64,000 nucleotides of DNA from the NCBI GenBank assembly GCA_048940445.1, contig JBHLON010000015.1, forward strand, positions 1 to 64,000. The letters run 5' to 3'. The notes below the pieces were generated by a model. It saw only the letters and a list, made by a program, of their open reading frames with translations, had not been told where the DNA came from and did not search any database. This DNA comes from Promethearchaeota archaeon (GTDB lineage: Archaea > Asgardarchaeota > Lokiarchaeia > Sigyniarchaeales > SOKP01). The translations under genes and the position numbers were made by a program. The first letter of the stretch is position 1; every line of letters starts with the position of its first letter. Of this stretch, positions 1 through 13,838 are shown piece by piece.

Positions 1-1383
1 ATAGTCCATGTAATGGTTCCTCCATTAGGAGAAGCATATTTAGCATCTTATTTAATTAGTCGTGGCCATGAAGTAAAATTACTTGATTTAACTTTAAGTA
101 ATAACTACAAACAAGATATTTCAAAAGCTATATATAGTTTTAATCCGCATGTAATAGGCTTTTCAATTCGAAATATTGATTCCACTACCTACCCCGGAAA
201 TCTGTTTTTTTATCTACCAGTAAAAAATATTATTCAATATATTAAACAACTAGTTGAGCCCGATATTCCAATAATTTTAGGTGGAGCAGGTTTTTCTATA
301 TTTTCTGAAGAAATTTTACGAGATTTAAACCATGATCTAGGTGTTGTTGGGGATGGTGAATTAGCATTTGCTGAAATATTGGATATGATTGAACATCGTA
401 GAGATCCTAGAAAACTTGATCGTGGTATATGCTTTTTAGGAAATAATGGTGAATACCATCAACGTCCACCATGGCGAGTTGAAGATTTAGATGGACTTCC
501 TTTTCCATTAAGAGAATTACTAGATAATAAAGCATATCTCATCGATCCTATGAAAAAATCTGGCCCTATTTGGGCTAATATTCAAACTAAACGAGGTTGT
601 CCTATGCATTGCATTTATTGTAGTTATAAATTTATAGAAGGCTCCAATGTTCGTTACCGATCTCCAAAAAGTATTGCCGAAGAGCTAGATATAATAGTAA
701 ATAATTATGGGATTAAAAATATTTTTATTGTAGACAGTATATTCAACTTAAATTATAATCACGTGAAAGAAACGTGTCAAGAGATAATTAAAGATAAAAT
801 AGACTTTAACTGGGGGGCAAATTACGTACCTAGTAAAAAATTTCTTGATTTAATGCCAATGATGAAAGATAGTGGTGCAATTCATTTTGCTACTGGGATA
901 GAATCTCTCTCTGAAGAGATGCTTAAAAATATGAATAAAGAAAGATCTTCCGATGAGGCGATTATTACTTCAAAAAAGTGTTTTGATTTAGGAATCGAAC
1001 AATTAATACATATGATTGTAGGCGGTCCGGGTGAAACACTTATAAGCGTTCAAAAGTCATTAGATCGGTTAGAAACTATCCAAAGTTATAGACGAAATTT
1101 ATGGCAAGGTGATGGAGATGTGATTCTATTTATTGGAATGAGGATATATCCGCATACTCCACTTCAACATATTGCCGAAAAAGATGGAATCATACAACCT
1201 CATCAGAATTTGCTTAAACCAAGATTTTATTTATCTCCAAAAATTAAGGAAACAGATTTATTCCAATTACTAAGGCATTATGGTATGAAAAACCCTAGGT
1301 GGATGATGCCAGGTCTTGGTTTCAATAATCCAGAAGGGTTTGCTGAATTGAGCCAAACTCAATTCGCAAAATATCAAAGTTAG
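1..1383 (+). CDS. Cobalamin (B12)-binding radical SAM enzyme, 5'-truncated by the window edge
   Basis: N-terminal B12-binding domain (PPLGEAYLASYL..GHEVKLLDL, IILGGAGFS, VGDGE) and QTKRGCPMHCIYC CxxxCxxC motif. The frame is open from base 1 (ata gtc cat gta atg = IVHVM), matching IHHVMVPP in the paralog, so the true start lies upstream of the window. Confidence 0.9.
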   Translation: MVHVMVPPLGEAYLASYLISRGHEVKLLDLTLSNNYKQDISKAIYSFNPHVIGFSIRNIDSTTYPGNLFFYLPVKNIIQYIKQLVEPDIPIILGGAGFSIFSEEILRDLNHDLGVVGDGELAFAEILDMIEHRRDPRKLDRGICFLGNNGEYHQRPPWRVEDLDGLPFPLRELLDNKAYLIDPMKKSGPIWANIQTKRGCPMHCIYCSYKFIEGSNVRYRSPKSIAEELDIIVNNYGIKNIFIVDSIFNLNYNHVKETCQEIIKDKIDFNWGANYVPSKKFLDLMPMMKDSGAIHFATGIESLSEEMLKNMNKERSSDEAIITSKKCFDLGIEQLIHMIVGGPGETLISVQKSLDRLETIQSYRRNLWQGDGDVILFIGMRIYPHTPLQHIAEKDGIIQPHQNLLKPRFYLSPKIKETDLFQLLRHYGMKNPRWMMPGLGFNNPEGFAELSQTQFAKYQS

Positions 1384-1412: not shown

Positions 1413-2585
1413 ATGAAATGGCAATCAGAAGTAGAAGATCTTTTTGAAAAGATAGTATTAGGAATACCAGAAATGGTAAGACCAGCGGTAAAACCAGCAC
1501 TTTTTGAAGCTGCTGAAAAAAAATGTGTTGAACGTCAAGCAAAAGAAGTAGCTGAGATTGATTTGGTGGTGGCATTATTTGAAGTGACACCACCCGCTTT
1601 CCAACCTACTATGATAGAAGATCTTAGGGAATTTGGTGTAGATTATGATAAGTATGTACCAAAAGTGGAGTCCAATTTTAAGTGTAATACAGATCTCGGT
1701 CAAATGGTTAAAGATATTTTGAAGATCGGAAAAATAACAGGAGTGAGGTGTAATGAGAATGCAATATGGAGAGCCATAAATGTTTATAAGCCCTTTTTTT
1801 CAGGATCTCCTGTATCAATTAGAACAACGACAAAACCCGTAGAAAGAAGAGATATCGCTGTAAGATATGTAGAATTTTTTGTCCCTCACAATCCAGATCC
1901 TTATAAGACAGCTATCAATGAAGGTTTATTAAATAAAAATGGGCATCCTATTCATGAAATGATAGTTGAAGCAATTGAAACTTTTGATATAATGGGTTAC
2001 GGTGTTGATGTTGATGCTAGTACCGGCTTATCGAAAATTTGGCCATTTATTGTTCCTGGTTCAATTGATCCTATTTTCTTAATAAAATCAATACCAGAAA
2101 GTATGAAAAAATATAGAAATTACTTAAATAAACATGGTTTAACTTCATTTAGTCTTTTTGCTTTTGACTTTTTACATAATACGACAAATATATATTTCAT
2201 GCTTAAGCAACCAGCAAAATCAGCATATGGTAATTGTATTGCATTGGTGGAGGATTTAGGATTCAAACCTGCATCAAAAGATATAATGGAAAGTTGTAGG
2301 AATGCTGTACATCTGAATTATACGTTTAATTGGGACTCACCCAAAATAGAACGCTTATGTTTCGGTATGGCATGTGACGATGCTTCAGAGGTTCCAATGC
2401 ATTTACATCCACTGATTAAAGATTTTGCTGAAAATACACCACTTCAAAGTGATTCTCATAAATTTATTTGGGGAGTGACTTTCACAAGAAAGGGTCTATA
2501 TTACAAGATCGAAAACGATTATAATGGAGCTATGGTAGATTTTTTAGGTATGGGTTGTAAAGCAGGATTAGATTCATATTACTAA
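1413..2585 (+). CDS. ABBA-family (NphB/CloQ-like) soluble aromatic prenyltransferase with an N-terminal DUF2621/PCP_red-like helical domain
   Basis: Residues ~90-390 follow NphB motif order: DPYKTAINEGL..GHP, YGVDVDASTGLSKIWPF, SIPESM, NIYF, FNWDSPKIERLCF, WGVTF...YYKIENDY. The first ~80 aa match the C-terminal module of the neighbouring U32 proteins. Confidence 0.85.
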   Translation: MKWQSEVEDLFEKIVLGIPEMVRPAVKPALFEAAEKKCVERQAKEVAEIDLVVALFEVTPPAFQPTMIEDLREFGVDYDKYVPKVESNFKCNTDLGQMVKDILKIGKITGVRCNENAIWRAINVYKPFFSGSPVSIRTTTKPVERRDIAVRYVEFFVPHNPDPYKTAINEGLLNKNGHPIHEMIVEAIETFDIMGYGVDVDASTGLSKIWPFIVPGSIDPIFLIKSIPESMKKYRNYLNKHGLTSFSLFAFDFLHNTTNIYFMLKQPAKSAYGNCIALVEDLGFKPASKDIMESCRNAVHLNYTFNWDSPKIERLCFGMACDDASEVPMHLHPLIKDFAENTPLQSDSHKFIWGVTFTRKGLYYKIENDYNGAMVDFLGMGCKAGLDSYY

Positions 2586-2615
2586 AAAAAGATTCAAAAT
2601 TATAAAAATAAGGAG

Positions 2616-3017
2616 GTGAAATGTGTTATGGAAACAAAAGAAGAATGGAAAGATTATCTAACGCGATTTATGAAAGCTTATAATGAGTTACCTGATTTGA
2701 AACCATTATTGGGTCCAATTGCACCATTAGTTTTTCAATATGAAATAACTGATAAACCTGAGATGAGTTACTGGCAATTTATTGATAAAGATAAAATGAG
2801 CTGGGGAATGGGTCAATATTCTGGTATAGAGGCTCCAACAGTAATCCATAAAACAAATTTTGAGACGATTAAGAAAGTTAATTCGGGAGAATCGGACCCA
2901 ATTCAAGCAACTATGTCCGGAACATATGTTATTGAAGGCGATGTTAGTAAACTCATGGCATGCGCACCTTTGTTGCCACTTAATGCAAAAGCTCACGAAA
3001 TTGCTAAAAATAATTAA
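2616..3017 (+). CDS. SCP2 sterol/lipid-binding domain protein
   Basis: SCP2-like C-terminal signature SGESDPIQATMSGTYVIEGDVSKLM; 133 aa; paralog at 4583. Confidence 0.75.
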   Translation: MKCVMETKEEWKDYLTRFMKAYNELPDLKPLLGPIAPLVFQYEITDKPEMSYWQFIDKDKMSWGMGQYSGIEAPTVIHKTNFETIKKVNSGESDPIQATMSGTYVIEGDVSKLMACAPLLPLNAKAHEIAKNN

Positions 3018-3137
3018 AAAAATAAAAAACAAACATAAGTTGTTTATTTAACAACATAATTAACATTTTTTTTAATAATTAAAGAAATAAATTAAAAATT
3101 CGATATGTAAACCAAATATTTTTAGAGAGCAAGGAAA

Positions 3138-4553
3138 ATGCGTGCGTTAATAATTAATGGGAGTCGAGAAATACATCATGTAATGGTACCCCCAATAGGT
3201 GATGTGTATCTCGCTGCGTATCTTATAAGTCAAGGACATGAAGTAAAGTTAGTTGATTTAGCTCTTAGTAGAGACTTTAAGCGAGATATATCAAACGCGA
3301 TTGACTCTTTCAAACCACATTTAATAGGTATTACTATTCGTAATGTGGACTCCGCAACCTATCCTGGAGTTCTCTACTTCTACTTGTCAGTAAGAAATGT
3401 TATTCTTTATGTTAAACAAATTGCAGAACCTAACATTCCTATAGTGCTCGGAGGTGCTGGTTTTTCCATGTTCTCAGAAGAGATTCTAAGAGATTTAAAC
3501 CACAATTTGGGTGTTTATGGGGATGGAGAATATGTAATTGCTGAGATTTTAAAATATATAAAAGATGGAAGGAATCTTAAAAAAATAGAACGAGGTATAT
3601 GCTTCATCGACAAAAATGGAAAATATTATCAAACTCCCCCTTGGCGTGTCGAAAATTTGGACGATTTGCCTGTTCCAGCTAGACAATTGCTAGATAATAG
3701 TAGTTATTTATATCATCCTGTAATTAATGGCGGAGAAAGTTGGGGAAATATCCAAACTAAACGAGGTTGTCCGATGAATTGTATTTATTGTAGTTACAAA
3801 AACATTGAAGGATCCTCCGTTCGATATCGTTCCCCAGAAATGGTAGCAGATGAGCTTGATTTTATAGTCAATAACATTGGGATCAAAAATATTTTTATAG
3901 TAGATAGCGTTCTCAATTTAAATTATAATCATCTGAAAGAGATATGTCAACAAATCATAGAGTATAAAATTGATATTAATTGGGGGGCAAATTATGTTCC
4001 ATCCAAAGAGTACATCGATTTAATGCCACTAATGAAAAAAAGTGGCGCGATTCATTTTGCTACGGGATTCGAATCGCTATCCGAGGATATGTTAAAAAAT
4101 TTGAATAAAACTGGATCCCCGGATGATGCTATTCTTACTTCAAAGAAATGCGTTGAGTTAGGTATTGAACAATTAATACATATTATGGTAGGAGGACCGG
4201 GGGAAACGATTCAGAGCATCCGAGTTTCATTAGATCGATTAACTACCATTAAAAATTTTAAAGCTAATTTATGGCAGGGAGAAGAAGATGTGTTAATTTT
4301 TGTAGGCTTGAGAATATACCCTAACACGCAACTTAATTTTATTGCTGAACAAGAAGGCGTTATCCCAATAGGAGAAAACCTGCTCAAACCAAAATTTTAT
4401 ATTTCTCCCCAAATCAATGAATTAGATTTATTTAATTTAATAAGAGAATATAGTGAAAGTAATCGCAAATGGATGGTTCCAGGTCTCGGTATTAATCTTC
4501 CAAAAGGTGAAGCCGAACTGAGCCAGATGCAGCTTGAGTTATATCAAAAATAA
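3138..4553 (+). CDS. Cobalamin-binding radical SAM enzyme (paralog of 1..1383)
   Basis: B12-binding N-terminus and QTKRGCPMNCIYC; colinear with the first copy along its whole length. Confidence 0.9.
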   Translation: MRALIINGSREIHHVMVPPIGDVYLAAYLISQGHEVKLVDLALSRDFKRDISNAIDSFKPHLIGITIRNVDSATYPGVLYFYLSVRNVILYVKQIAEPNIPIVLGGAGFSMFSEEILRDLNHNLGVYGDGEYVIAEILKYIKDGRNLKKIERGICFIDKNGKYYQTPPWRVENLDDLPVPARQLLDNSSYLYHPVINGGESWGNIQTKRGCPMNCIYCSYKNIEGSSVRYRSPEMVADELDFIVNNIGIKNIFIVDSVLNLNYNHLKEICQQIIEYKIDINWGANYVPSKEYIDLMPLMKKSGAIHFATGFESLSEDMLKNLNKTGSPDDAILTSKKCVELGIEQLIHIMVGGPGETIQSIRVSLDRLTTIKNFKANLWQGEEDVLIFVGLRIYPNTQLNFIAEQEGVIPIGENLLKPKFYISPQINELDLFNLIREYSESNRKWMVPGLGINLPKGEAELSQMQLELYQK

Positions 4554-4582
4554 AAAAATAAAACCAAATAAAAAGGAAAGAG

Positions 4583-4981
4583 ATGAAAATAGAAATGAAT
4601 ACAAAAAAAGATTGGGAAGCATATCTAACAAAATTTTTTAAAGCATATAACGAATTACCTGGGCTAAAGCCTGGGTTAAAACCAATAGCACCATTAGTCT
4701 TCCAATATATTATATCAGATAAACCAGAAATGAATTTTTGGGAATTATTCGAAAAAGCTGAGGTAAAATGGGGAATGGGGAAATATTTAGGGCCAAATGT
4801 ACCGAAAACAATTCATAAAACGGATTTTGAGACAATAAAAAAGGTAGTCTCAGGTGAGTCCGACCCTGTTCAAGCTACAATAGCTGGGTCATATACTATT
4901 GAAGGTGACTTCACGAAATTAACAGCATGTTCAGCTTTATTGCCACTGAATCCAAAAGCCCACGCAATAGCGATTAAATAA
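4583..4981 (+). CDS. SCP2 sterol/lipid-binding domain protein (paralog)
   Basis: SGESDPVQATIAGSYTIEGDFTKL; colinear with 2616..3017. Confidence 0.75.
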   Translation: MKIEMNTKKDWEAYLTKFFKAYNELPGLKPGLKPIAPLVFQYIISDKPEMNFWELFEKAEVKWGMGKYLGPNVPKTIHKTDFETIKKVVSGESDPVQATIAGSYTIEGDFTKLTACSALLPLNPKAHAIAIK

Positions 4982-5109
4982 AATAATCCGAAAAAAAATG
5001 TCCGAATCTAGCTTAATATAAAATGTAATTAAGAAATCAATATCTCAAAAAAATTAGACAAAAAACTAAATAAATTATGTTTTAAAATTCTAAAAAAAGG
5101 TGAAGAAAA

Positions 5110-6801
5110 ATTAATTTTTATGTAGCAACGAATTGGGACCCAAATCTTATAGATGAATTGGCGAAATTACCTGTTATCGATGTCTACGGTACAGCCCCTC
5201 ATTCGGTCGTAGGATCTGGGCGTCCATCCGTTTTGTTAAAAGATATCGATGAGGAAGAGATTATAGAACATATTAATAAAGTGCATAAGAATAAAATGAC
5301 ATTTTCTTACGTACTGAATGCTCCTTGTATGAATAATATGGAATACGATCCATATTATCATAAAGAGTTGCTCAAACTTTTGCAATGGATTAGCGATATT
5401 GGTGCTGATAATGTTATTGTGACGATTCCTTTATTAATACAACTTATTAAGGAGCAATTCCCTAAACTCAAAGTGCGCGTGTCAACCATATCTCATGTAA
5501 ATAGCGTGAATCGTGCAAAGTTTTACGAATCGCTTGGTGCTGATGAAATTACTCCCGATGTAATGATCAATCGCGACTTTAAGACTTTAGAAAAAATACG
5601 AGAAAATGTAAAATGTAAAATTGTCTTACTCTTAACAGATGGGTGCTTATATCAATGTCCATTTAGGATTTACCATTATAATACACTGGGGCACGCTTCT
5701 CAGAGTTACCAACAGTTTGAACGCCGTTATATTGAAACATGTGTCTTAAATTGTAGTCTTATCAAATTTTCAGATCCTACTGAAGCGATAAAGTGTAGAT
5801 GGGTTCGTCCTGAAGATTTATCTCATTACGAGGCAATTGGAATCAATAATTTTAAAATCGCCGGACGTATTATGCCTACTTCTTGGATTGTTAGATCGGT
5901 TAAAGCTTTTTCATCCCGAAAATATGAGGGAAATCTTATAGATATCATTGAAGGGTTCTCAAATTCGGTTCCCGAAGGATTAGACAATGTTTCTCAAAAA
6001 GGATTTAAAGATACCCTCGGAAAAGAATATAAGTCAAAATTATATATAGACAACACCAAATTAAATGGTTTTATTGACTTCTTTAAGAAACAAAATTGTA
6101 TAGCGATGTGTGATGATTGTAATTATTGCGCAGAATGGGCAAAAAAAGCAGTATATTTGGATAAAGAAGAAGCAAGTAAATATGTCGAATCTGTACGAGA
6201 ATACATGGAAGACATATTAACAAGTCGCGAATTCGGTGTCGCATCTGCTAAACCAAAAAAAGAGAAAAAGACGGAGCTTCCGTGGAATCCGGAAACAGCG
6301 AAAATTTTTAGCGAGATAATAAAATTAATACCTCTTCAATTTCAATCGTTGGCACGAATGACTATTTCTTCGCTAGCAGAAGAAAAAACAAGAAAGAAGA
6401 ACTCTCAAGAGGTAAACAACCAAGAAATGGTGGAAGCATTCATTGAGGGCACGCCAAGTGCATTTCAAGCTAGTATGAGAGAAGGTCTTGAAAAATATGG
6501 ATTGATAACTTGCGAAGTTGGTGTCGAATCTATTAAACCTAAAGAAGAGCAAAAAGCAGGTCTTTCATGGAATTTAGAAACTGCAAAACTATTTGATGAG
6601 CTCGTGAAATTAACGCCTCCTCAATTTCAATCGATAGCAAAGATGGCAATCTCTTCGCTTGCTGAAGAAAAAGCGAAAAAGAGGAGTTCTCAAGAGGTAA
6701 ACAACCAAGATATGATAGAAGCGTTTATGGAAGGCACCCCAAGCACATTTCAAGCTACTATGAGAGAAGGTCTTAAAAAATATGGATTGTTGAATGATTA
6801 A
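5110..6801 (+). CDS. Peptidase U32-family Fe-S protein (putative O2-independent hydroxylase) with two C-terminal DUF2621/PCP_red-like repeats
   Basis: U32-type motifs FSYVLNAPC, GADEIT..INRDF, GCLYQCP, RPEDL..Y..IGI..FKIAGR, plus CIAMCDDCNYC. The frame is open from 5104. The likely start is ATT at 5110, after AGGTGA, giving (M)NFYVATNWDPNL. Confidence 0.8.
   Translation: MNFYVATNWDPNLIDELAKLPVIDVYGTAPHSVVGSGRPSVLLKDIDEEEIIEHINKVHKNKMTFSYVLNAPCMNNMEYDPYYHKELLKLLQWISDIGADNVIVTIPLLIQLIKEQFPKLKVRVSTISHVNSVNRAKFYESLGADEITPDVMINRDFKTLEKIRENVKCKIVLLLTDGCLYQCPFRIYHYNTLGHASQSYQQFERRYIETCVLNCSLIKFSDPTEAIKCRWVRPEDLSHYEAIGINNFKIAGRIMPTSWIVRSVKAFSSRKYEGNLIDIIEGFSNSVPEGLDNVSQKGFKDTLGKEYKSKLYIDNTKLNGFIDFFKKQNCIAMCDDCNYCAEWAKKAVYLDKEEASKYVESVREYMEDILTSREFGVASAKPKKEKKTELPWNPETAKIFSEIIKLIPLQFQSLARMTISSLAEEKTRKKNSQEVNNQEMVEAFIEGTPSAFQASMREGLEKYGLITCEVGVESIKPKEEQKAGLSWNLETAKLFDELVKLTPPQFQSIAKMAISSLAEEKAKKRSSQEVNNQDMIEAFMEGTPSTFQATMREGLKKYGLLND
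6226..6795 (+). repeat. Intragenic tandem duplication (period 285 nt / 95 aa) of the C-terminal helical module
   Basis: cgcgaattcggtgtcgcatctgctaaacc at 6226 vs tgcgaagttggtgtcgaatctattaaacc at 6511. The protein repeats W.ETAK.F...P.QFQS.A.M.ISSLAEEK....SQEVNNQ.M.EAF.EGTPS.FQA.MREGL.KYGL. Confidence 0.9.
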
Positions 6802-6894
6802 GCAAATTAATAAAACATTAATATAAAAATAAACAAAAGTTATTGTAAAAAAAATCGAAAAAAAAATTTAAAACTCTAAAAAAGGTGAAGAAAA

Positions 6895-8298
6895 ATTAGT
6901 TTTCATGTAGCAACGAATTGGGACCCAAATCTTTTAGAAGAATTAGCGAAATTTCCTGTTGTTGATGTCTACGGATCAGCTCCTAAGTCGATTGTAGGAG
7001 GTGGCCGTCCATTCTTCTTGTTAAAAAATGTGAATGATGAGGCGATTACCGAATATATTAGAGAAGTACATAAGAAGAAAATGACATTTTCTTACGCTTT
7101 GAATGCTCCCTGTATGAATAATATGGAATACGACCCAAATTATCATAAAGAGCTGCTTAAATATTTGCAATGGATTAGCGATATTGGTACAGATTATATT
7201 ATTGTGTCTATTCCATTATTAATACAACTTATTAAGGAGCAGTTCCCTAAACTTAAAATACGTGTGTCAACCGTCTCTCATGTAAATAGCGTGAATCGCG
7301 CAAAATTTTACGAGTCGTTTGGAGCGGATGAGATTACCACTGATTATATGATTAATCGTGATTTCAAGACTTTAGAAAAAATACGAAAATCAGTAAAATG
7401 TAATATCATTTTACTCTGTTCAGATGGGTGTTTGTATCAATGTCCGTTTAGATTATACCATTATAATATCTTAGGACATGCTTCTCAAACTTTCCAACAG
7501 TTTGGATGCTACTATATTGACACATGCGTCTTAAACTGTAGTACTATAAAATATTCAAATCCTACTGAGGTTATAAAATGTAGATGGATTCGTCCCGAGG
7601 ATTTATCTCACTACGAAGCTATTGGAATCAATAGTTTTAAAATTGCAGGGCGCTCAATGCCCACTTCATGGATTGTCAGATCGGTAAGAGCATTTTCATC
7701 TCGAAAATACGAGGGAAATCTCACGGATATTCTTGAAGCGTTTCGATTTTCGTTTGGAGATGCACAAGAAAAAGATCCAGCTACAGGATTTAAAGAAACC
7801 CTCGGAAAAGAATCAACAAAATTAATAATCGATAATACTAAGTTAAACGGTTTTATTGAATTCTTTAAGAAACAAAATTGTATAGCAATGTGTGGAGATT
7901 GTAATTATTGTGCAGAATGGGCGAAAAAAGCAGTATATATAGATAAAGAAGAAGCGGGTAAATATGTTGAATCTATTAAAGGATACATGAAAGAAATATT
8001 GACAAGTCGCGAATTTGGTGTAGAATCTGCTAAATCTAAAGAACAGAAAAAATCATGTTTTCCATGGAATCCGGAGACGGCGAAAATTTTTGACGAGCTA
8101 ATAAAAGAAACACCTCGCCAATTTCAATCTATGGCCCGATTGATAATTTCTTCGGCAGCAGAAGAAAAGGCAAAAACTAGGAACTCTCACGAGGTAAACA
8201 ACCAAGATATAATCGAAGCATTTATTGAAGGTACGCCAAACGCATTTCAAACCAGCATGAAAGAAGGTCTTAAAAAGTATGGGCTTCTGAATAATTAA
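6895..8298 (+). CDS. Peptidase U32-family Fe-S protein, paralog with one C-terminal DUF2621/PCP_red-like module
   Basis: Same motifs as 5110..6801. The frame is open upstream of the listed TTG (7018) back to ATT at 6895, giving (M)SFHVATNWDPNLLEELAKFPVVDVYG, again preceded by AGGTGA. Confidence 0.8.
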   Translation: MSFHVATNWDPNLLEELAKFPVVDVYGSAPKSIVGGGRPFFLLKNVNDEAITEYIREVHKKKMTFSYALNAPCMNNMEYDPNYHKELLKYLQWISDIGTDYIIVSIPLLIQLIKEQFPKLKIRVSTVSHVNSVNRAKFYESFGADEITTDYMINRDFKTLEKIRKSVKCNIILLCSDGCLYQCPFRLYHYNILGHASQTFQQFGCYYIDTCVLNCSTIKYSNPTEVIKCRWIRPEDLSHYEAIGINSFKIAGRSMPTSWIVRSVRAFSSRKYEGNLTDILEAFRFSFGDAQEKDPATGFKETLGKESTKLIIDNTKLNGFIEFFKKQNCIAMCGDCNYCAEWAKKAVYIDKEEAGKYVESIKGYMKEILTSREFGVESAKSKEQKKSCFPWNPETAKIFDELIKETPRQFQSMARLIISSAAEEKAKTRNSHEVNNQDIIEAFIEGTPNAFQTSMKEGLKKYGLLNN

Positions 8299-8339: not shown

Positions 8340-8690
8340 AACTCTCCTTATATGAATAATATGGAATAAGATCAGCAATATCATGAATTGCTCTTTAAAT
8401 ACTTAGTAATGGATTGATGTTATTAGTACTAATAATGTTATTGTTTCTATTTTTTCTTAATACAACTTATTAAAGAGTTATTCCCTAACTTTAATTCCTG
8501 GACTAAAGTCCCAATAGTTATTCATAAAACAAACTTTAAAACAATTAAAAAAGTTAATTCAGGAGAGTCTGACCCAATTCAGGTGGTTATATCAGGAACT
8601 TATCTTTCTGAACAAGATGTGAGTAAACCTATGATATGTTCACTTTTGTTGCCACTGAATGTAAAAATTTACTTAAGAGCGATTCAAAAA
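8340..8690 (+). pseudogene. Degraded chimeric remnant: U32 gene fragment joined to an SCP2 gene fragment
   Basis: ~8340-8495 (atgaataatatggaataagat...taatacaacttattaaagagttattccctaa) matches U32 nt ~5325-5470 with stops and indels. ~8500-8685 (ttcataaaacaaactttaaaacaattaaaaaagttaattcaggagagtctgacccaattcag...ttgttgccactgaatg) matches the 3' half of the SCP2 genes. Confidence 0.85.
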
Positions 8691-10092: not shown

Positions 10093-11235
10093 ATGTCATC
10101 GAAATTAAGAGACCAAACTGCTCCTTTAATAATTGACATTGGGACTTCAAATTCCAGAATAGGATGGGCGGGTGATGACTTTCCAGATATTGTTGCTCCA
10201 AGTGTATATGTTGACGTTTCTGATTATTTATTCACATCTGATGTTATTGAAGGACTAGAAGAATTGTTTTTAAAGAAGGAACAGATCTCTCATTTAGTTG
10301 GACATCAAGCATTAAAATATCAAAATATTCTAAAAGTTCATGAATTTAAAAAAGAAAATAATTTTAACATTCTTCTTAAATTTTTTTTGTATTATTACAA
10401 ACAGTTAAAAATTGATGATGAATATCAATTTAAACAACCTTTAGTTATCTTATCTCCGTTTTTCATATCAGATTTGGAGAAATCAAAATTACAAGATCTG
10501 TTTTTTAATTCCTTAAAATTTCCCTCAATTCTTTTCTTAAATGAAAGTCAAGCTATCCTTTCCACACTTCAAAAAGATAGCGGTGTTATAGTGAGTATGG
10601 GTGAATCCCATACTTATATATCTACAATTTTTCATGGTTTTACAAATATAATGGCTAAAGACGTTTTTCCAATTGCGGGTAAAGATTTAACAAATTATTT
10701 CTTGAATTTGATTTTAACCCGCATTAGTACATCGAAAAATATTTATATAGATAAACCGATTGCAAAAGAAATTAAGGAAAAGCTATCATTATGTGTTTTA
10801 AATCCTCAAGAGGAACAAAAAAGAGTGAAAAGTGGTTTTACAAAATATGATAGAGTGATCGATCTTCCTGATGGATCTAACTTAAAAATAAATTTAGAAC
10901 GTTTCTTACTATCTGAACCCTTATTTAATCCAAAATTAGCTCATATCGATTATATTGATCTTGGGGAAGCAATTTCAAAAGTAATTAAAACATGGGAAAG
11001 AGAAAATTGGGAAGAATTGTTAACTAATATTATATTATCGGGTGGAGGGAGTTTAATTACGGGATTAGATCAAAGAATTCGAATGGAATTACAAAAGCAC
11101 TTTTCCGAAAAATTAAATGATAAAATTAAGGTTATAGCTGCTTCTGGTAGAGAGAATATGGGTTGGATAGGTGCTTCTATCCTATATACAAAAGGAAAGC
11201 TGGATAAAGGCTGGATTGATAACCCTGACTTTTAA
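10093..11235 (+). CDS. Divergent actin-related protein (Asgard ARP)
   Basis: Actin fold motifs: LIIDIGTSNSRIGWAGDDFP (phosphate 1), AGKDLTNY, KEIKEKL, LPDG, ERF..EPLFNP, NIILSGGGS (adenosine), WIGASIL. Confidence 0.9.
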   Translation: MSSKLRDQTAPLIIDIGTSNSRIGWAGDDFPDIVAPSVYVDVSDYLFTSDVIEGLEELFLKKEQISHLVGHQALKYQNILKVHEFKKENNFNILLKFFLYYYKQLKIDDEYQFKQPLVILSPFFISDLEKSKLQDLFFNSLKFPSILFLNESQAILSTLQKDSGVIVSMGESHTYISTIFHGFTNIMAKDVFPIAGKDLTNYFLNLILTRISTSKNIYIDKPIAKEIKEKLSLCVLNPQEEQKRVKSGFTKYDRVIDLPDGSNLKINLERFLLSEPLFNPKLAHIDYIDLGEAISKVIKTWERENWEELLTNIILSGGGSLITGLDQRIRMELQKHFSEKLNDKIKVIAASGRENMGWIGASILYTKGKLDKGWIDNPDF

Positions 11236-11261
11236 CCTAAAATTATAGTGAGTACATAATT

Positions 11262-13838
11262 ATGAACGCAAACTTAAGTAAAAAAAGCAATTTTTTAGAG
11301 GATTTCCAACAGAAAGTAATACAAGGTAGACGTTTATTACAATCAGGAAACCATAGGTGGGCAGATAGATTATTAACTGATCTTTATTTTGAGATTGAAA
11401 AAAATGATTGGTTGGATATTCAGAAAAAACATCAATTGATGATGATCATCTCAAATTCTTGGTGGATGTACATTAATTCCCTGATTCAAAGAAAAGAAGG
11501 AAAAATTGATTTTGATATAATTAAATATATTGATGCGTATAAACGATTCTTTTCATTTTTATCAAAGATTGATGATTTTTATCTTTTTAATAACTTTGGA
11601 ACTATGCTTCTTAAATCATTTATTAACTTAAAAGAATTATCCCAACAAGGGATTACTAAATATATAAATTCGTTTAGTGCAAAAGTTATAGAAAAGGAAG
11701 AATTTCAAAAGTTAATTGAATTGCAGATTTTGCTAATGTATTTGAGAAAATCTGTTCTACCTCAAGAATTTTTTCATTATGCCACAGAAATATTAGGAAG
11801 AACTCTTTTTAAACTAGAACCGAATAAGAGAGCATTATTCTTATTTATTTTTTTAGAAAATGTAAATTATAAATATAATCTTTTGGAAGATTCATCAGAA
11901 TTCGTCCAAATCATAACTAAAATTTTAGCCAATCGTCTCCCAGGATACTTAAAGGATGAATTCAGTAAATTAAGCAGAATTTCGATAAACGAAAGAAATT
12001 TTGAAGAGATTTTAGTAGATCTTGAGGATTTAATTTTTTATTTGAATAATATTGGAGAATTTTCATGGATAATGATCATAATTAAAAATCTCTTCGAAAA
12101 AGTACAGAAATTTCAATCTTTTGTTGATGCAATTTCTTATATAAGAAAATTTATAGATTTTGCCATTACACGTAATAGGTTTGAGATAGCATTCGAAATT
12201 TATGACTTTCTTGAAGATTTATTTATGACACAAACTGATTTAGGATACGATAAGGTCTTAATTGAATTATGGGTTGAAGCTTGTAAGAAATTCGTTGATA
12301 TGAAGGAAAAAAGATATCTCTTACAGGCTCTAGAAAAACTAAACACTCATTTAAAAATACCTCAAACTAACTCTCAATTACTTCATTATTTTTTAACTTG
12401 CAATTATCTATGGCAATTTAATTCGATATTTTTTTCATTAGAATCTAAGGATTTTTGGCGTATGATGTTCTATCGTGCCTTATTTGAAGAAAAAGATTAT
12501 GATCTTGCTCGTAAGATTATTGAATATTTAGATAAAAATATCAGATCTGTTATTTTAGATCCTGCTATTTTATATAATGAAACTGAATCATTACAACAAA
12601 ATATGTATACATTTGAAGAAAAATCCTTCCATTTTGAATTAGAACAATTCTTTATAAAGCAAATAATTTTTCGAATTAATAGAGACGGTTTAATATCTTA
12701 TAGAATGATGTCAGAAGATGGTAAAGTCATCGATGGAAGAGTTTTAAATGAATATTGGAATGATGCACAAATTAATGAAATTTATAATGATATCTTTTCT
12801 GATAATAGAGATAAGAAATATGATTTCGATCTCATGGAATTTGGTAAATTACTATATGTTTTTCTCCCTAAACCGATAAGAAAACTTTTAAGACGATTTG
12901 AAATTAAAACTTTAACATTTGTACCAGAAATCTATTTTATACTCGATCAAATGACGATTCCTTTTGAATTAATTTATGATAATAATTTCTTTTTATTGAA
13001 ATATTCAATAGGATATATAATCGGTGAAACACCTTTAGGAGGAGTCAAATTTGAGAAGGATATAAAAGAAGAAATTACTAATAGTTTACAAAAATATCAT
13101 GTATTATTAATTGACTCTGTAAATTCTCTCGGACCATTCAGGTGGAACGAAACTACGAAGAGTAAAGAATTAATTTTTCCATTTGCCTCTGGTTCTAACG
13201 AGATAAATTTTATTACCGAATTTTTTAATAAAAGAAATGAAGTTGAAAGTATCACAATATTAACAGGAATTAATTCTACAAAAGAAGCTATATTATCAAA
13301 TGTAACAAAGAGTCCAAATCATGTTATTCATTTTGTTGGAAATCTTTTTTACTCACATTGGAATCCAAATGATAGTTTTTTCATCACAAATGATAATCAA
13401 ATAATTACGATAAAGGAAATTCTTTATTCGATAAGAAGAAATTCTTCAAGCATTAAACCATTCTTATTTTTCAATACGCAAGTTTTTGATATTAATGGAA
13501 AAAAGATTAAGAATGCCCCCAACAGTTTAGGAGATGTTGCGAAACAGTTTGATTATGAAGAAATTACTGGTATTGTGACTCGAAATTATCCTATATTTGA
13601 TGATGAGACAAAAGAAATTAACGCTAATTTTTATATTAACTTATTTAGCAAAAACAATCAAGGGATATCACTTTTAAAAGCACGCCAAATTTGTATGTCT
13701 AATAGAGTAACTAAACTTGTAGAAAGCAAAGTTAAAGATTTAAGTGATACAAAAGGAAGTATGAGTATTGATTTGCAAAGCTCTTTAGCTATTTCAAGTT
13801 ACATGCTTTTCGGAAAACCTTGGAAAAAGTTAAGTTAA
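11262..13838 (+). CDS. Large helical-repeat protein with a C-terminal CHAT (caspase/separase-like) domain, catalytic residues apparently lost
   Basis: CHAT-like motifs: FGKLLY, IPFELIYD, VIHFVGN (cf. HFAGHG), FLFFNTQ (cf. VFLNAC), SLLKARQ, SYMLFGKP (cf. YVLYGDP). Confidence 0.65.
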   Translation: MNANLSKKSNFLEDFQQKVIQGRRLLQSGNHRWADRLLTDLYFEIEKNDWLDIQKKHQLMMIISNSWWMYINSLIQRKEGKIDFDIIKYIDAYKRFFSFLSKIDDFYLFNNFGTMLLKSFINLKELSQQGITKYINSFSAKVIEKEEFQKLIELQILLMYLRKSVLPQEFFHYATEILGRTLFKLEPNKRALFLFIFLENVNYKYNLLEDSSEFVQIITKILANRLPGYLKDEFSKLSRISINERNFEEILVDLEDLIFYLNNIGEFSWIMIIIKNLFEKVQKFQSFVDAISYIRKFIDFAITRNRFEIAFEIYDFLEDLFMTQTDLGYDKVLIELWVEACKKFVDMKEKRYLLQALEKLNTHLKIPQTNSQLLHYFLTCNYLWQFNSIFFSLESKDFWRMMFYRALFEEKDYDLARKIIEYLDKNIRSVILDPAILYNETESLQQNMYTFEEKSFHFELEQFFIKQIIFRINRDGLISYRMMSEDGKVIDGRVLNEYWNDAQINEIYNDIFSDNRDKKYDFDLMEFGKLLYVFLPKPIRKLLRRFEIKTLTFVPEIYFILDQMTIPFELIYDNNFFLLKYSIGYIIGETPLGGVKFEKDIKEEITNSLQKYHVLLIDSVNSLGPFRWNETTKSKELIFPFASGSNEINFITEFFNKRNEVESITILTGINSTKEAILSNVTKSPNHVIHFVGNLFYSHWNPNDSFFITNDNQIITIKEILYSIRRNSSSIKPFLFFNTQVFDINGKKIKNAPNSLGDVAKQFDYEEITGIVTRNYPIFDDETKEINANFYINLFSKNNQGISLLKARQICMSNRVTKLVESKVKDLSDTKGSMSIDLQSSLAISSYMLFGKPWKKLS

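What the first reader, a model, noticed from the sequence alone, without database searches (positions are those of the whole stretch)
1413..8298. One ~80-aa helical module shared by different enzymes of the cluster: a possible metabolon docking tag
Seen: the motif W..E...(L/I)F..(I/L)....P......(A)......AE.K...R...EV...D...A..E.TP..FQ..M.E.L..(F/Y)G occurs four times. It is at the N-terminus of the prenyltransferase, twice at the C-terminus of U32-1 and once at the C-terminus of U32-2. It resembles DUF2621/PCP_red modules. A module appended to unrelated catalytic folds in the same cluster is independent evidence that they act together. Inference: it mediates homotypic assembly, or binding to SCP2 or an electron donor, analogous to the soluble Ubi metabolon.
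Basis: partly seen in the sequence, partly recalled or inferred. Interest (0 to 1): 0.8.

Follow-up and report, generated by a model that had tools for sequence, protein, structure and literature searches.

The report
Shared helical tag on pathway enzymes
Several unrelated enzymes of an uncharacterised oxygen-free lipid-tailoring gene cluster in an Asgard archaeon carry the same small, independently folding helical domain of unknown function, which shows they belong together and offers a handle for testing how they cooperate.

Summary
Four gap-free copies of a ~78-aa module sit at the coordinates given: the prenyltransferase N-terminus, twice at the U32-1 C-terminus, and once at the U32-2 C-terminus. 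A fifth copy lies on a third U32 elsewhere in the genome.

The module folds alone as a four-helix domain (pLDDT 90). Its first ~50 residues are homologous to PCP_red (hhalign 96.5%, E 8.5e-10). It matches the soluble part of Pfam DUF2621.

The family is small: 149 representatives among 1.84 billion proteins. In Asgard clusters the module is fused to every protein type of this pathway:
- ABBA prenyltransferase
- U32 Fe-S enzymes
- SPASM radical SAM enzymes
- B12 radical SAM enzymes
- SCP2 lipid carriers

It is almost as conserved as the catalytic domains.

Function is not settled.
- A fold of the natural tandem gives beads on a string (pTM 0.51), so stable module-module packing gets no support.
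- Some bacteria carry a single free-standing copy.
- Repeated fusions next to SCP2 favour a tethered adaptor that brings each enzyme to a common partner.

Earlier notes of this scan described the same operon type in two other Asgard genomes, but not this module. My verdict is a real, catalogued but uncharacterised domain in a new role, of moderate interest.

The parts
1413..1646 (+). Module copy 1: N-terminal 78 residues of the ABBA (PTase_Orf2) prenyltransferase
   Evidence: Profile hit at 137.6 bits. The Pfam PTase_Orf2 match starts only at residue 95.
1647..2585 (+). Short linker and catalytic PT-barrel of the prenyltransferase (fusion partner)
   Evidence: PF11468, 175.8 bits, residues 95-378. 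Most of the 115 homologues are exactly 390 aa, that is, module plus barrel.
5158..6273 (+). U32-1 catalytic part (fusion partner). The real start is probably upstream of the listed TTG.
   Evidence: PF01136. The conserved VATNWDPNL...LAK.PV sequence lies upstream of the TTG, in frame.
6274..6501 (+). Module copy 2 (U32-1, first of the tandem pair)
   Evidence: 147.1 bits. In the tandem model it folds with block-mean pLDDT 86-98.
6517..6552 (+). Disordered linker between the two U32-1 modules
   Evidence: Residues 82-93 of the tandem model have pLDDT < 50.
6559..6795 (+). Module copy 3 (U32-1, second of the tandem pair)
   Evidence: 150.9 bits. DUF2621 at 27.9 bits.
7018..8055 (+). U32-2 catalytic part (fusion partner). 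The real start is probably about 43 codons upstream.
   Evidence: PF01136. The open frame is 469 aa, against 468-471 aa in homologues. The upstream frame encodes the conserved N-terminus.
8056..8292 (+). Module copy 4 (U32-2 C-terminus); used as the reference for the structure model
   Evidence: 151.6 bits. DUF2621 at 29.2 bits. AlphaFold2 pLDDT 90.2, four helices plus a beta-bridge.
2616..3017 (+). SCP2a, a lipid-carrier-type protein without a module here; candidate partner
   Evidence: PF02036. Homologues elsewhere are fused to the module (P0145, P0189, U32-module-SCP2).
4583..4981 (+). SCP2b, without a module here; candidate partner
   Evidence: PF02036, weak. Same reasoning as for SCP2a.
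13..1383 (+). B12-binding radical SAM 1, without a module here (5' end cut by the contig end)
   Evidence: PF02310 + PF04055. Homologues P0183 and P0239 carry a C-terminal module.
3138..4553 (+). B12-binding radical SAM 2, without a module here
   Evidence: PF02310 + PF04055.

Best explanation
The repeat is an autonomous ~80-residue four-helix domain of the PCP_red/DUF2621 superfamily. Its core is PCP_red with two lengthened helices, followed by an extra helix-turn-helix ending in the TP..F...M...L...G motif.

Shown:
- It folds on its own.
- In the U32-1 tandem the two copies are joined by a disordered linker. On the other proteins it sits at a terminus outside the catalytic-domain match.
- It has been kept under purifying selection on the prenyltransferase and U32 proteins across Asgard lineages.
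- In different genomes it is fused to every protein type of this oxygen-independent prenyl-lipid tailoring cluster, including the SCP2 carriers.

Inferred:
- It works as a tethered adaptor. Each enzyme that carries it is brought to the same partner, so that a hydrophobic intermediate can be handed from prenyltransferase to radical SAM and U32 enzymes without being released.
- The partner is most likely the SCP2-held intermediate or the enzyme-SCP2 unit.
- This is closer in logic to the recognition elements appended to peptide-tailoring enzymes than to a self-associating tag.
For: Identity:
- BLASTP E 6e-15 between the PT and U32 copies.
- DUF2621 hits on profile positions 52-137.
- hhalign of 66 diverse modules against true PCP_red domains: 96.5% probability, E 8.5e-10.
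- The best and third-best PDB sequence hits are the two solved PCP_red domains, 2kru and 2l09, at non-significant E-values of 0.12 and 0.24. Structural Z is 7.5 and 5.7.
- ESM Atlas neighbours are DUF2621/PCP_red clusters.

Autonomy:
- The module alone gives pLDDT 90.2.
- In the tandem both copies fold and the linker has pLDDT < 50.
- It occurs N-terminal, C-terminal, internal and free-standing.

Selection:
- Median identity is 65% for the module against 70% for the barrel in 86 PTs, and 67% against 72% in 83 U32s.
- Nearly all 115 PT homologues are 390 aa.

Shared by the pathway:
- Partners are U32, PTase_Orf2, SPASM-rSAM, B12-rSAM and SCP2.
- Clusters in relatives carry 4-5 module-bearing proteins.

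Link to SCP2:
- U32-module-SCP2 fusions occur in three relatives' loci and in P0250.
- SCP2-module occurs in P0145 and P0189, and both arrangements in P0148.
Against: - No interaction was tested directly. AlphaFold-Multimer is not on hand and coordinates are not returned.
- The window's own SCP2 and B12-rSAM proteins lack the module.
- A third U32-module gene (C104) has no SCP2 nearby.
- The bacterial LuxC-module-rSAM cluster has no SCP2 within 10 kb.
- Omnitrophota hold free-standing copies with no conserved neighbourhood. The family-wide function therefore cannot depend on SCP2 or on this pathway.
- Conserved polar residues shared with PCP_red (R24, E36, R42, D51 of the family consensus) could equally mark a small-molecule site.
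Confidence: 0.4

Rival explanations
1. Module-module docking. Modules on different proteins pair or oligomerise and so assemble PT, U32-1 (two modules, bivalent) and U32-2 into one complex.
For: - Each Asgard cluster carries 2-5 module-bearing proteins.
- Tandem duplication of the module arose several times independently: U32-1, P0218, P0255, P0259 and P0148.
- N-terminal modules (PT, SPASM) and C-terminal modules (U32, B12-rSAM, SCP2) fall largely into different parts of the module tree, as head and tail docking pairs would (weak support).
Against: - AlphaFold2 on the natural tandem gives pTM 0.51 with a disordered linker, so no confident packing.
- There is no charge complementarity between classes.
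- Four Omnitrophota genomes have exactly one intact copy.
- The LuxC-module-rSAM locus has only one copy.
- The solved PCP_red domains were determined as isolated ~60-residue domains by solution NMR (entries 2kru and 2l09). Their oligomeric state was not checked here.
Confidence: 0.2
2. Ligand-binding domain. The module binds a moiety common to all intermediates (for example the prenyl tail or aromatic head) or a cofactor, and acts as a tethered substrate-capture or lid element.
For: - Conserved polar positions are shared with PCP_red.
- All well-defined partners act on hydrophobic or aromatic substrates: PT, U32, rSAM, HpaB, a methyltransferase, PNPOx and LuxC.
- The founding PCP_red domain is part of BchB, which handles a hydrophobic tetrapyrrole (Pfam name).
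Against: - An 80-residue four-helix domain with a mostly alanine and small-residue core has little room for a lipid pocket.
- No cysteine or histidine motif is present.
- No ligand-binding protein stands out among the structural matches, which are AAA+ lid domains.
- Fusion to SCP2, itself the lipid binder, would be redundant.
Confidence: 0.15
3. Cis-acting accessory. The module packs back on its own catalytic domain, as a regulatory or stabilising cap, and does not mediate contacts between proteins.
For: - It is nearly as conserved as the catalytic domains.
- The segment after it is also conserved, about 61% identity.
- It is always at a terminus or a domain boundary.
Against: - The same domain would have to fit five unrelated folds from either terminus.
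- Free-standing forms are the largest class: 71 of about 140 representatives, though some may be gene fragments.
- The linker in U32-1 is predicted to be disordered.
Confidence: 0.12
4. Docking site for a shared electron donor (ferredoxin or flavodoxin) that serves the Fe-S enzymes of the cluster.
For: - Many partners are Fe-S or radical enzymes: U32, SPASM-rSAM, B12-rSAM, and BchB for PCP_red.
- One family of 28 sequences is module-module-[2Fe-2S] thioredoxin-like ferredoxin, named NuoE by its sources.
- An FMN reductase gene follows, one LuxE gene downstream, the LuxC-module-rSAM gene.
Against: The prenyltransferase, SCP2, the class I methyltransferase and the glyoxalase-fold partners need no electrons, yet carry the module. 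The PT fusion is the most strictly conserved of all.
Confidence: 0.08

Closest known systems
Pfam DUF2621 (PF11084), uncharacterised Bacillota proteins
   Same: This is the best family match. All copies align to profile positions ~52-137, and two copies pass the curated cut-off. ESM Atlas nearest clusters are DUF2621.
   Different: - DUF2621 proteins are ~139 aa with about 50 extra N-terminal residues that the module lacks. From memory, unverified here, these form a membrane anchor, as described for B. subtilis YneK in PMC3460841.
- Here the domain is soluble and fused to enzymes.
- No function is known for DUF2621.
PCP_red (PF08369), the C-terminal domain of protochlorophyllide reductase subunit B and small 'PCP reductase family' proteins (solved: 2kru, 2l09)
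   Same: - The first ~50 residues are homologous (hhalign 96.5%, E 8.5e-10).
- The W...E / P.F.R / AE..A..R / V pattern is the same.
- Structural Z is 7.5 (2l09) and 5.7 (2kru).
- Some family members hit PF08369 directly.
- The genome also has a canonical PCP_red on a tandem-Usp protein.
   Different: - The module has two four-residue helix extensions and an additional ~30-residue helical hairpin (AF..TP..F...M...L...G).
- None of the four window copies is listed for PF08369, even at E <= 10.
- The role of PCP_red itself is not established.
UbiT/UbiU/UbiV and the UbiJ-UbiK Ubi metabolon of Proteobacteria (PMC6747719)
   Same: It shares the cast: U32 Fe-S proteins in two paralogues plus SCP2 lipid-binding proteins, acting without O2 on a prenylated substrate. 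From general knowledge, UbiJ has an SCP2 domain plus a helical C-terminal extension used for partner binding.
   Different: - UbiU, UbiV and UbiT carry no PCP_red-like module.
- The U32 proteins here score far below the UbiU model (12.9 bits against a cut-off of 440).
- This cluster adds an ABBA prenyltransferase and B12/SPASM radical SAM enzymes.
- The product is unknown.
RiPP recognition elements (PqqD-like domains) on peptide-tailoring enzymes
   Same: Working analogy only. Both are small portable domains found free-standing or fused to many different tailoring enzymes of one cluster. That includes the N-terminus of SPASM radical SAM enzymes, which is exactly where this module sits in relatives.
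   Different: - The fold differs. The module is four helices with one beta-bridge, and no PqqD-like chain appeared in the fold searches.
- No precursor-peptide gene was seen.
- The cluster contains lipid carriers rather than peptides.
AAA+ lid (small alpha-helical) domains, e.g. BchI 1g8p, MCM, Rpt3
   Same: These are the best structural matches: Z 8.2-9.2 over 57-72 residues. Pfam gives weak MCM_lid hits. Lid domains are protein-contact surfaces.
   Different: There is no ATPase domain and no significant sequence similarity. The Z values are within the range the tool warns is common for small helical bundles.

Membership tests
DUF2621 (PF11084) | Score at or above the Pfam gathering cut-off (27.7 bits) | tested here: met
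   The U32-2 module scores 29.2 bits and the second U32-1 module 27.9 bits. Whole U32-1 scores 46.8 bits. The first U32-1 copy (25.1) and the PT copy (14.9) fall below the cut-off.
DUF2621 (PF11084) | Full-length architecture of the family (139 positions, including the N-terminal ~50) | tested here: not met
   All matches cover profile positions ~52-137 only. The N-terminal third of the model has no counterpart.
PCP_red (PF08369) | Score at or above the Pfam gathering cut-off (32.5 bits) | tested here: not met
   No PF08369 row appears for any of the four copies, even at E <= 10. A whole-genome scan with PF08369 finds only the Usp protein on C131 (57.1 bits).
PCP_red superfamily (remote homology) | Significant profile-profile match and the same fold as solved PCP_red domains | tested here: met
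   - hhalign gives 96.5% probability, E 8.5e-10 over 42 columns.
- Z is 7.5 (2l09, rmsd 2.4, 57 aligned) and 5.7 (2kru).
- The best and third-best PDB profile hits are 2kru and 2l09.
- B12-rSAM-fused members hit PF08369 at E 1.6e-5.
Self-associating docking tag (head-tail docking domains, as in PKS/NRPS) | Confident module-module interface, or complementary surfaces between N-terminal and C-terminal classes | tested here: inconclusive
   The natural tandem gives pTM 0.51 with linker pLDDT < 50. Net charges overlap between classes. No multimer prediction is available.
Self-associating docking tag | At least two module-bearing proteins wherever the module occurs | tested here: not met
   This is met in Asgard clusters. 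It is not met in four Omnitrophota genomes with one intact copy each, nor in the LuxC-module-rSAM loci.
RiPP recognition element (PqqD-like) | Winged-helix fold with a three-stranded sheet, and a precursor peptide gene in the cluster | tested here: inconclusive
   The model has four helices and a single beta-bridge. No PqqD-like chain is listed. No small conserved ORF was looked for systematically.
UbiU/UbiV-UbiT system | U32 proteins matching the UbiU/UbiV equivalog models | tested here: not met
   NF047963 UbiU scores 12.9 bits against a cut-off of 440. The best NCBIfam hit is TrhP at 29.7 bits against 534.
AAA+ lid domain | Follows a P-loop ATPase core | tested here: not met
   No ATPase domain is found in any partner. 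The similarity is structural only.

The most novel reading that the evidence does not exclude
The module is the lipid-pathway counterpart of a recognition element. It would be a portable domain that lets otherwise unrelated enzymes (prenyltransferase, U32 hydroxylase-like, SPASM and B12 radical SAM) each dock onto an SCP2 protein that carries the growing hydrophobic intermediate. SCP2 would then act like a carrier protein and the module like its universal docking adaptor. That would be a new organising principle for anaerobic lipid or quinone-like biosynthesis, and the first function for the PCP_red/DUF2621 superfamily.
Probability: 0.2. Interest if true: 0.8.

Novelty: new variant of a known kind. 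Interest (0 to 1): 0.55.

Why it matters
- **First functional lead for the family.** PCP_red and DUF2621 are catalogued but functionally blank. A full-text search found no paper discussing them as protein domains.
- **Evidence that the cluster is one pathway.** The domain is appended to nearly every protein type of an undescribed, oxygen-independent prenyl-lipid tailoring cluster of Asgard archaea. This is independent, sequence-based evidence that these proteins form one pathway.
- **A practical handle.** The module gives a small, soluble, well-folding bait for pull-downs that could reveal the complex and perhaps the unknown product.
- **If the adaptor reading holds.** It would show how strictly anaerobic archaea channel greasy intermediates between soluble enzymes. 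That problem has so far been solved experimentally only for the proteobacterial Ubi metabolon.

Tried and rejected
- **Aldehyde ferredoxin oxidoreductase as a partner (P0068): rejected.** Its last 144 residues are the 3' end of a U32 gene, including part of the catalytic domain (64% identity to U32-2). It is a rearrangement or an assembly chimera.
- **TPR proteins among the profile hits (P0221, P0245, P0256): treated as spurious.** They give several weak stretches of ~13 bits in repeat proteins.
- **Sequence search of the PDB with the window-only profile:** nothing relevant.
- **Foldseek against the PDB:** no match at E <= 0.001.
- **Looking for BchB/ChlB chains among the structural matches,** to see what PCP_red touches in DPOR. 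None was listed, and the DPOR cryo-EM paper does not discuss that domain.
- **Charge complementarity between module classes:** none.
- **Conserved neighbourhood of free-standing bacterial modules:** none. The neighbours are MFS transporters, pilins, PKD proteins, kinases and the like.
- **A module remnant in the decayed DNA after U32-2:** the fossil holds U32 N-terminal and SCP2 3' fragments only.
- **The look-up of encoding contigs was closed.** Contexts of the ferredoxin, PNPOx, HpaB and methyltransferase fusions could therefore not be read.
- **A first tandem alignment was discarded (A8).** It misaligned U32 catalytic residues onto module A.
Full report
**Observation**

The region holds seven co-oriented genes:
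- a B12-binding radical SAM (13-1383, cut by the contig end)
- a PTase_Orf2/ABBA prenyltransferase (1413-2585)
- SCP2 (2616-3017)
- a second B12-radical SAM (3138-4553)
- a second SCP2 (4583-4981)
- two U32 proteins (5158-6801 and 7018-8298)

The window lies in a Loki-type Asgard genome. An actin-family gene follows at 10093-11235, and homologues are named Promethearchaeota and related groups.

It covers PT residues 1-78, U32-1 residues 373-448 and 468-546, and U32-2 residues 347-425. The four copies align without internal gaps and share 19 invariant columns. PT against U32-2 gives BLASTP E 6e-15.

The three U32 copies are young paralogues (72% aa, 75-80% nt identity). The PT copy is old (31-35% aa). 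A profile search of the whole 3.64-Mb assembly finds one further copy. It is at the C-terminus of a third U32 next to another B12-radical SAM on contig C104.

**What the module is**

Folded alone with 51 aligned sequences, it gives a confident model: pLDDT 90.2, pTM 0.75. The model has four helices (6-17, 21-41, 49-59, 62-74) and a one-residue beta-bridge between the invariant Trp region and the conserved Val.

Pfam places all copies on positions ~52-137 of DUF2621. Two copies are above the curated cut-off.

I then built an alignment of 66 diverse modules. I compared it with canonical PCP_red domains taken from Asgard universal-stress proteins, one of them in this genome. hhalign gives 96.5% probability, E 8.5e-10. 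The first ~50 residues of the module are PCP_red with two four-residue insertions.

Other lines agree:
- The best and third-best hits of the diverse profile in the PDB are the two solved PCP_red domains, 2kru at E 0.12 and 2l09 at E 0.24. Neither is significant on its own.
- The model superposes on them with Z 7.5 and 5.7.
- The ESM Atlas neighbours are DUF2621/PCP_red clusters.

The highest structural scores go to AAA+ lid domains (BchI, MCM, Rpt3; Z 8-9). That range is what the tool says small helical bundles reach by chance, so I treat it as a fold resemblance only.

The module is therefore an extended PCP_red domain. It has the PCP_red core plus a C-terminal helical hairpin carrying AF..TP..F...M...L...G.

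**Distribution and partners**

The family is small. An exhaustive profile search of 1.84 billion representatives returned 149 proteins at E <= 0.001 and 40 at E <= 1e-10.

Classifying them by homology to the window's proteins and by Pfam gives the following picture:
- about 71 are free-standing proteins of 60-120 aa, some surely fragments
- 23 are U32 proteins (module C-terminal)
- 17 are ABBA prenyltransferases (N-terminal, but C-terminal in two)
- 10 are SPASM radical SAM enzymes (N-terminal)
- 2 are B12-radical SAMs like those of the window (C-terminal)
- 2 are SCP2-module proteins
- there are also U32-module-SCP2 fusions

Single cases include:
- LuxC-module-rSAM/SPASM
- an HpaB C-terminal domain
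- a PNPOx-like protein
- a class I methyltransferase
- a glyoxalase-fold protein
- a family of 28 sequences with two modules in front of a thioredoxin-like [2Fe-2S] ferredoxin

An apparent aldehyde-oxidoreductase fusion is a chimera carrying the last 144 residues of a U32 gene. TPR hits are spurious.

**The Asgard cluster**

In 151 sampled genomes of the phylum, 10 carry clear copies of the module, all in the window's own GTDB family (G000 plus 9 of its 25 other sampled members). One further match, in another family, is weak and partial (E 2.7e-5). Each of the ten has 2-10 copies lying in one or two clusters.

The fuller clusters of relatives read as follows:
- two module-SPASM radical SAMs
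- a B12-radical SAM
- module-PT
- a module-less U32
- U32-module-SCP2
- U32-module

One relative also has SPASM-rSAM-SCP2 fusions.

The PT subfamily is strikingly uniform. Most of its 115 homologues, from Loki, Thor, Hod, Hermod and Odin lineages, are exactly 390 aa. Only a few distant ones (about 300 aa, 39-46% identity) lack the module.

The module is almost as conserved as the catalytic domains. Median identity is 65% against 70% in 86 PTs, and 67% against 72% in 83 U32s. So it is a selected, functional part of these proteins. It marks all protein classes of the pathway in one genome or another.

**Tests of mechanism**

1. *Homotypic packing.* I folded the natural tandem of U32-1 (window 6274-6795). 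Both modules are confident, residues 82-93 between them have pLDDT < 50, and pTM is 0.51. AlphaFold2 sees two independent beads. Copy B had only three aligned rows, and a negative result of this kind is weak. It nevertheless gives no support to self-association.
2. *Charge complementarity.* Net charges of N-terminal and C-terminal module classes overlap.
3. *Is more than one module-bearing protein always present?* No.
   - Of five Omnitrophota genomes reached through loci, all have 2-3 dispersed free-standing paralogues.
   - In a wider sample of 81 genomes, seven have the module. Four of these have a single intact copy, and two more hold only a copy broken by stop codons.
   - The neighbourhoods of these genes are not conserved.
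   - A high-GC bacterial locus carries just one module, between LuxC and a SPASM radical SAM. It sits in a LuxE/LuxC/FMN-reductase cluster.
4. *Link to SCP2.* The module and SCP2 are joined in one polypeptide in at least three architectures: U32-module-SCP2; SCP2-module; and P0148, which contains both. By Rosetta-stone logic this points to a functional coupling of the module with the lipid carrier.

**Interpretation**

Identity and autonomy of the domain are shown. Its role is inferred.

My preferred reading is a tethered adaptor. It would bring each enzyme to a common partner that itself need not carry the module. That partner is most likely the SCP2-bound intermediate or the enzyme-SCP2 unit. 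I give this about 0.4.

The rivals are:
- direct module-module docking (0.2)
- binding of a common small-molecule moiety (0.15)
- a cis-acting cap (0.12)
- docking of an electron donor (0.08)

The electron-donor idea fits the many Fe-S partners and the ferredoxin fusion. It does not fit the prenyltransferase, SCP2 and methyltransferase fusions.

The family-wide function must be something a single free-standing copy can also perform. This is the main argument against a pure self-association tag.

**Comparison with what is known**

- The cast (two U32 paralogues plus SCP2, no O2) recalls UbiU/UbiV/UbiT (PMC6747719). However, the U32 proteins fail the UbiU model by a wide margin, and Ubi proteins carry no such module.
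- The behaviour resembles RiPP recognition elements: a portable domain on many tailoring enzymes, including the N-terminus of SPASM enzymes. The fold differs, though, and no precursor peptide was seen.
- A full-text search found no paper that discusses PCP_red or DUF2621 as protein domains. For B. subtilis YneK, which I recall (unverified here) to be the DUF2621 type protein, a two-hybrid study reports only membrane foci and an interaction through its N-terminal 44 residues, not the module (PMC3460841).

**Limits**

- No multimer prediction and no coordinates were available.
- Many 'free-standing' representatives may be fragments of longer genes from short metagenomic contigs.

Earlier notes of this scan describe the same operon type in two other Asgard genomes as an undescribed anaerobic prenyl-aromatic tailoring operon. 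My cluster comparisons agree with that. Those notes did not address the module.

Noticed in passing
window 5104-5157 and 6889-7017: Both U32 genes continue upstream of the first ATG/GTG/TTG. The frames encode (N/S)F(Y/H)VATNWDPNL..ELAK.PV.DVYG, which matches the conserved N-terminus of homologues (468-471 aa). The true starts must therefore use a non-canonical codon, or the ORF calls are about 18 and 43 codons too short.
   Followed up: partly
window 8344-8666: The intergenic DNA after U32-2 holds decayed gene fragments. About 145 nt are 77% identical to the 5' part of the U32 genes (5321-5465, 7106-7254). About 156 nt are 78% identical to the 3' half of SCP2a (2835-2990). There is no module remnant.
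   Followed up: yes
L007:7573-10622 (G000 contig C104): A second mini-locus in the same genome pairs a B12-binding radical SAM-like gene (490 aa) directly with a third U32-module gene (469 aa). No PT or SCP2 lies nearby.
   Followed up: partly
L015:6525-7742 (-) (G000 contig C131): A 405-aa protein that looked to me like a tandem universal-stress protein (not run through Pfam) ends in a canonical PCP_red domain (57.1 bits). The same architecture occurs in a congener and in another Asgard family.
   Followed up: partly
L016:12048-14099; L017:6256-8262 (-); L018:14924-16993: Relatives encode U32-module-SCP2 triple fusions of 668-689 aa with a divergent internal module. They also encode a module-less U32 paralogue just upstream.
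   Followed up: partly
L018:9398-10975 and 11007-12515: Two adjacent SPASM radical SAM proteins in a relative show strong similarity to the window's SCP2 proteins, presumably as a C-terminal SCP2 domain, and carry no module. They mirror the rSAM + SCP2 gene pairs of the window.
   Followed up: no
L086:8790-16205 (metagenome contig, 58% GC): A bacterial cluster reads LuxE, LuxC, LuxC-module-rSAM/SPASM (about 950 aa), LuxE, FMN reductase. It is an unrelated fatty-acyl context for the same module.
   Followed up: partly
protein P0068 (ENA contig, 711 aa): An aldehyde ferredoxin oxidoreductase is joined in frame to the last 144 residues of a U32-module gene. It is a rearrangement or an assembly chimera, not a clean domain fusion.
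   Followed up: yes
G141:C1:300267-300467: A congener has a module-coding stretch interrupted by an in-frame TGA, in a 65-aa frame next to an intact U32-module gene. It is possibly a decaying prenyltransferase gene.
   Followed up: no
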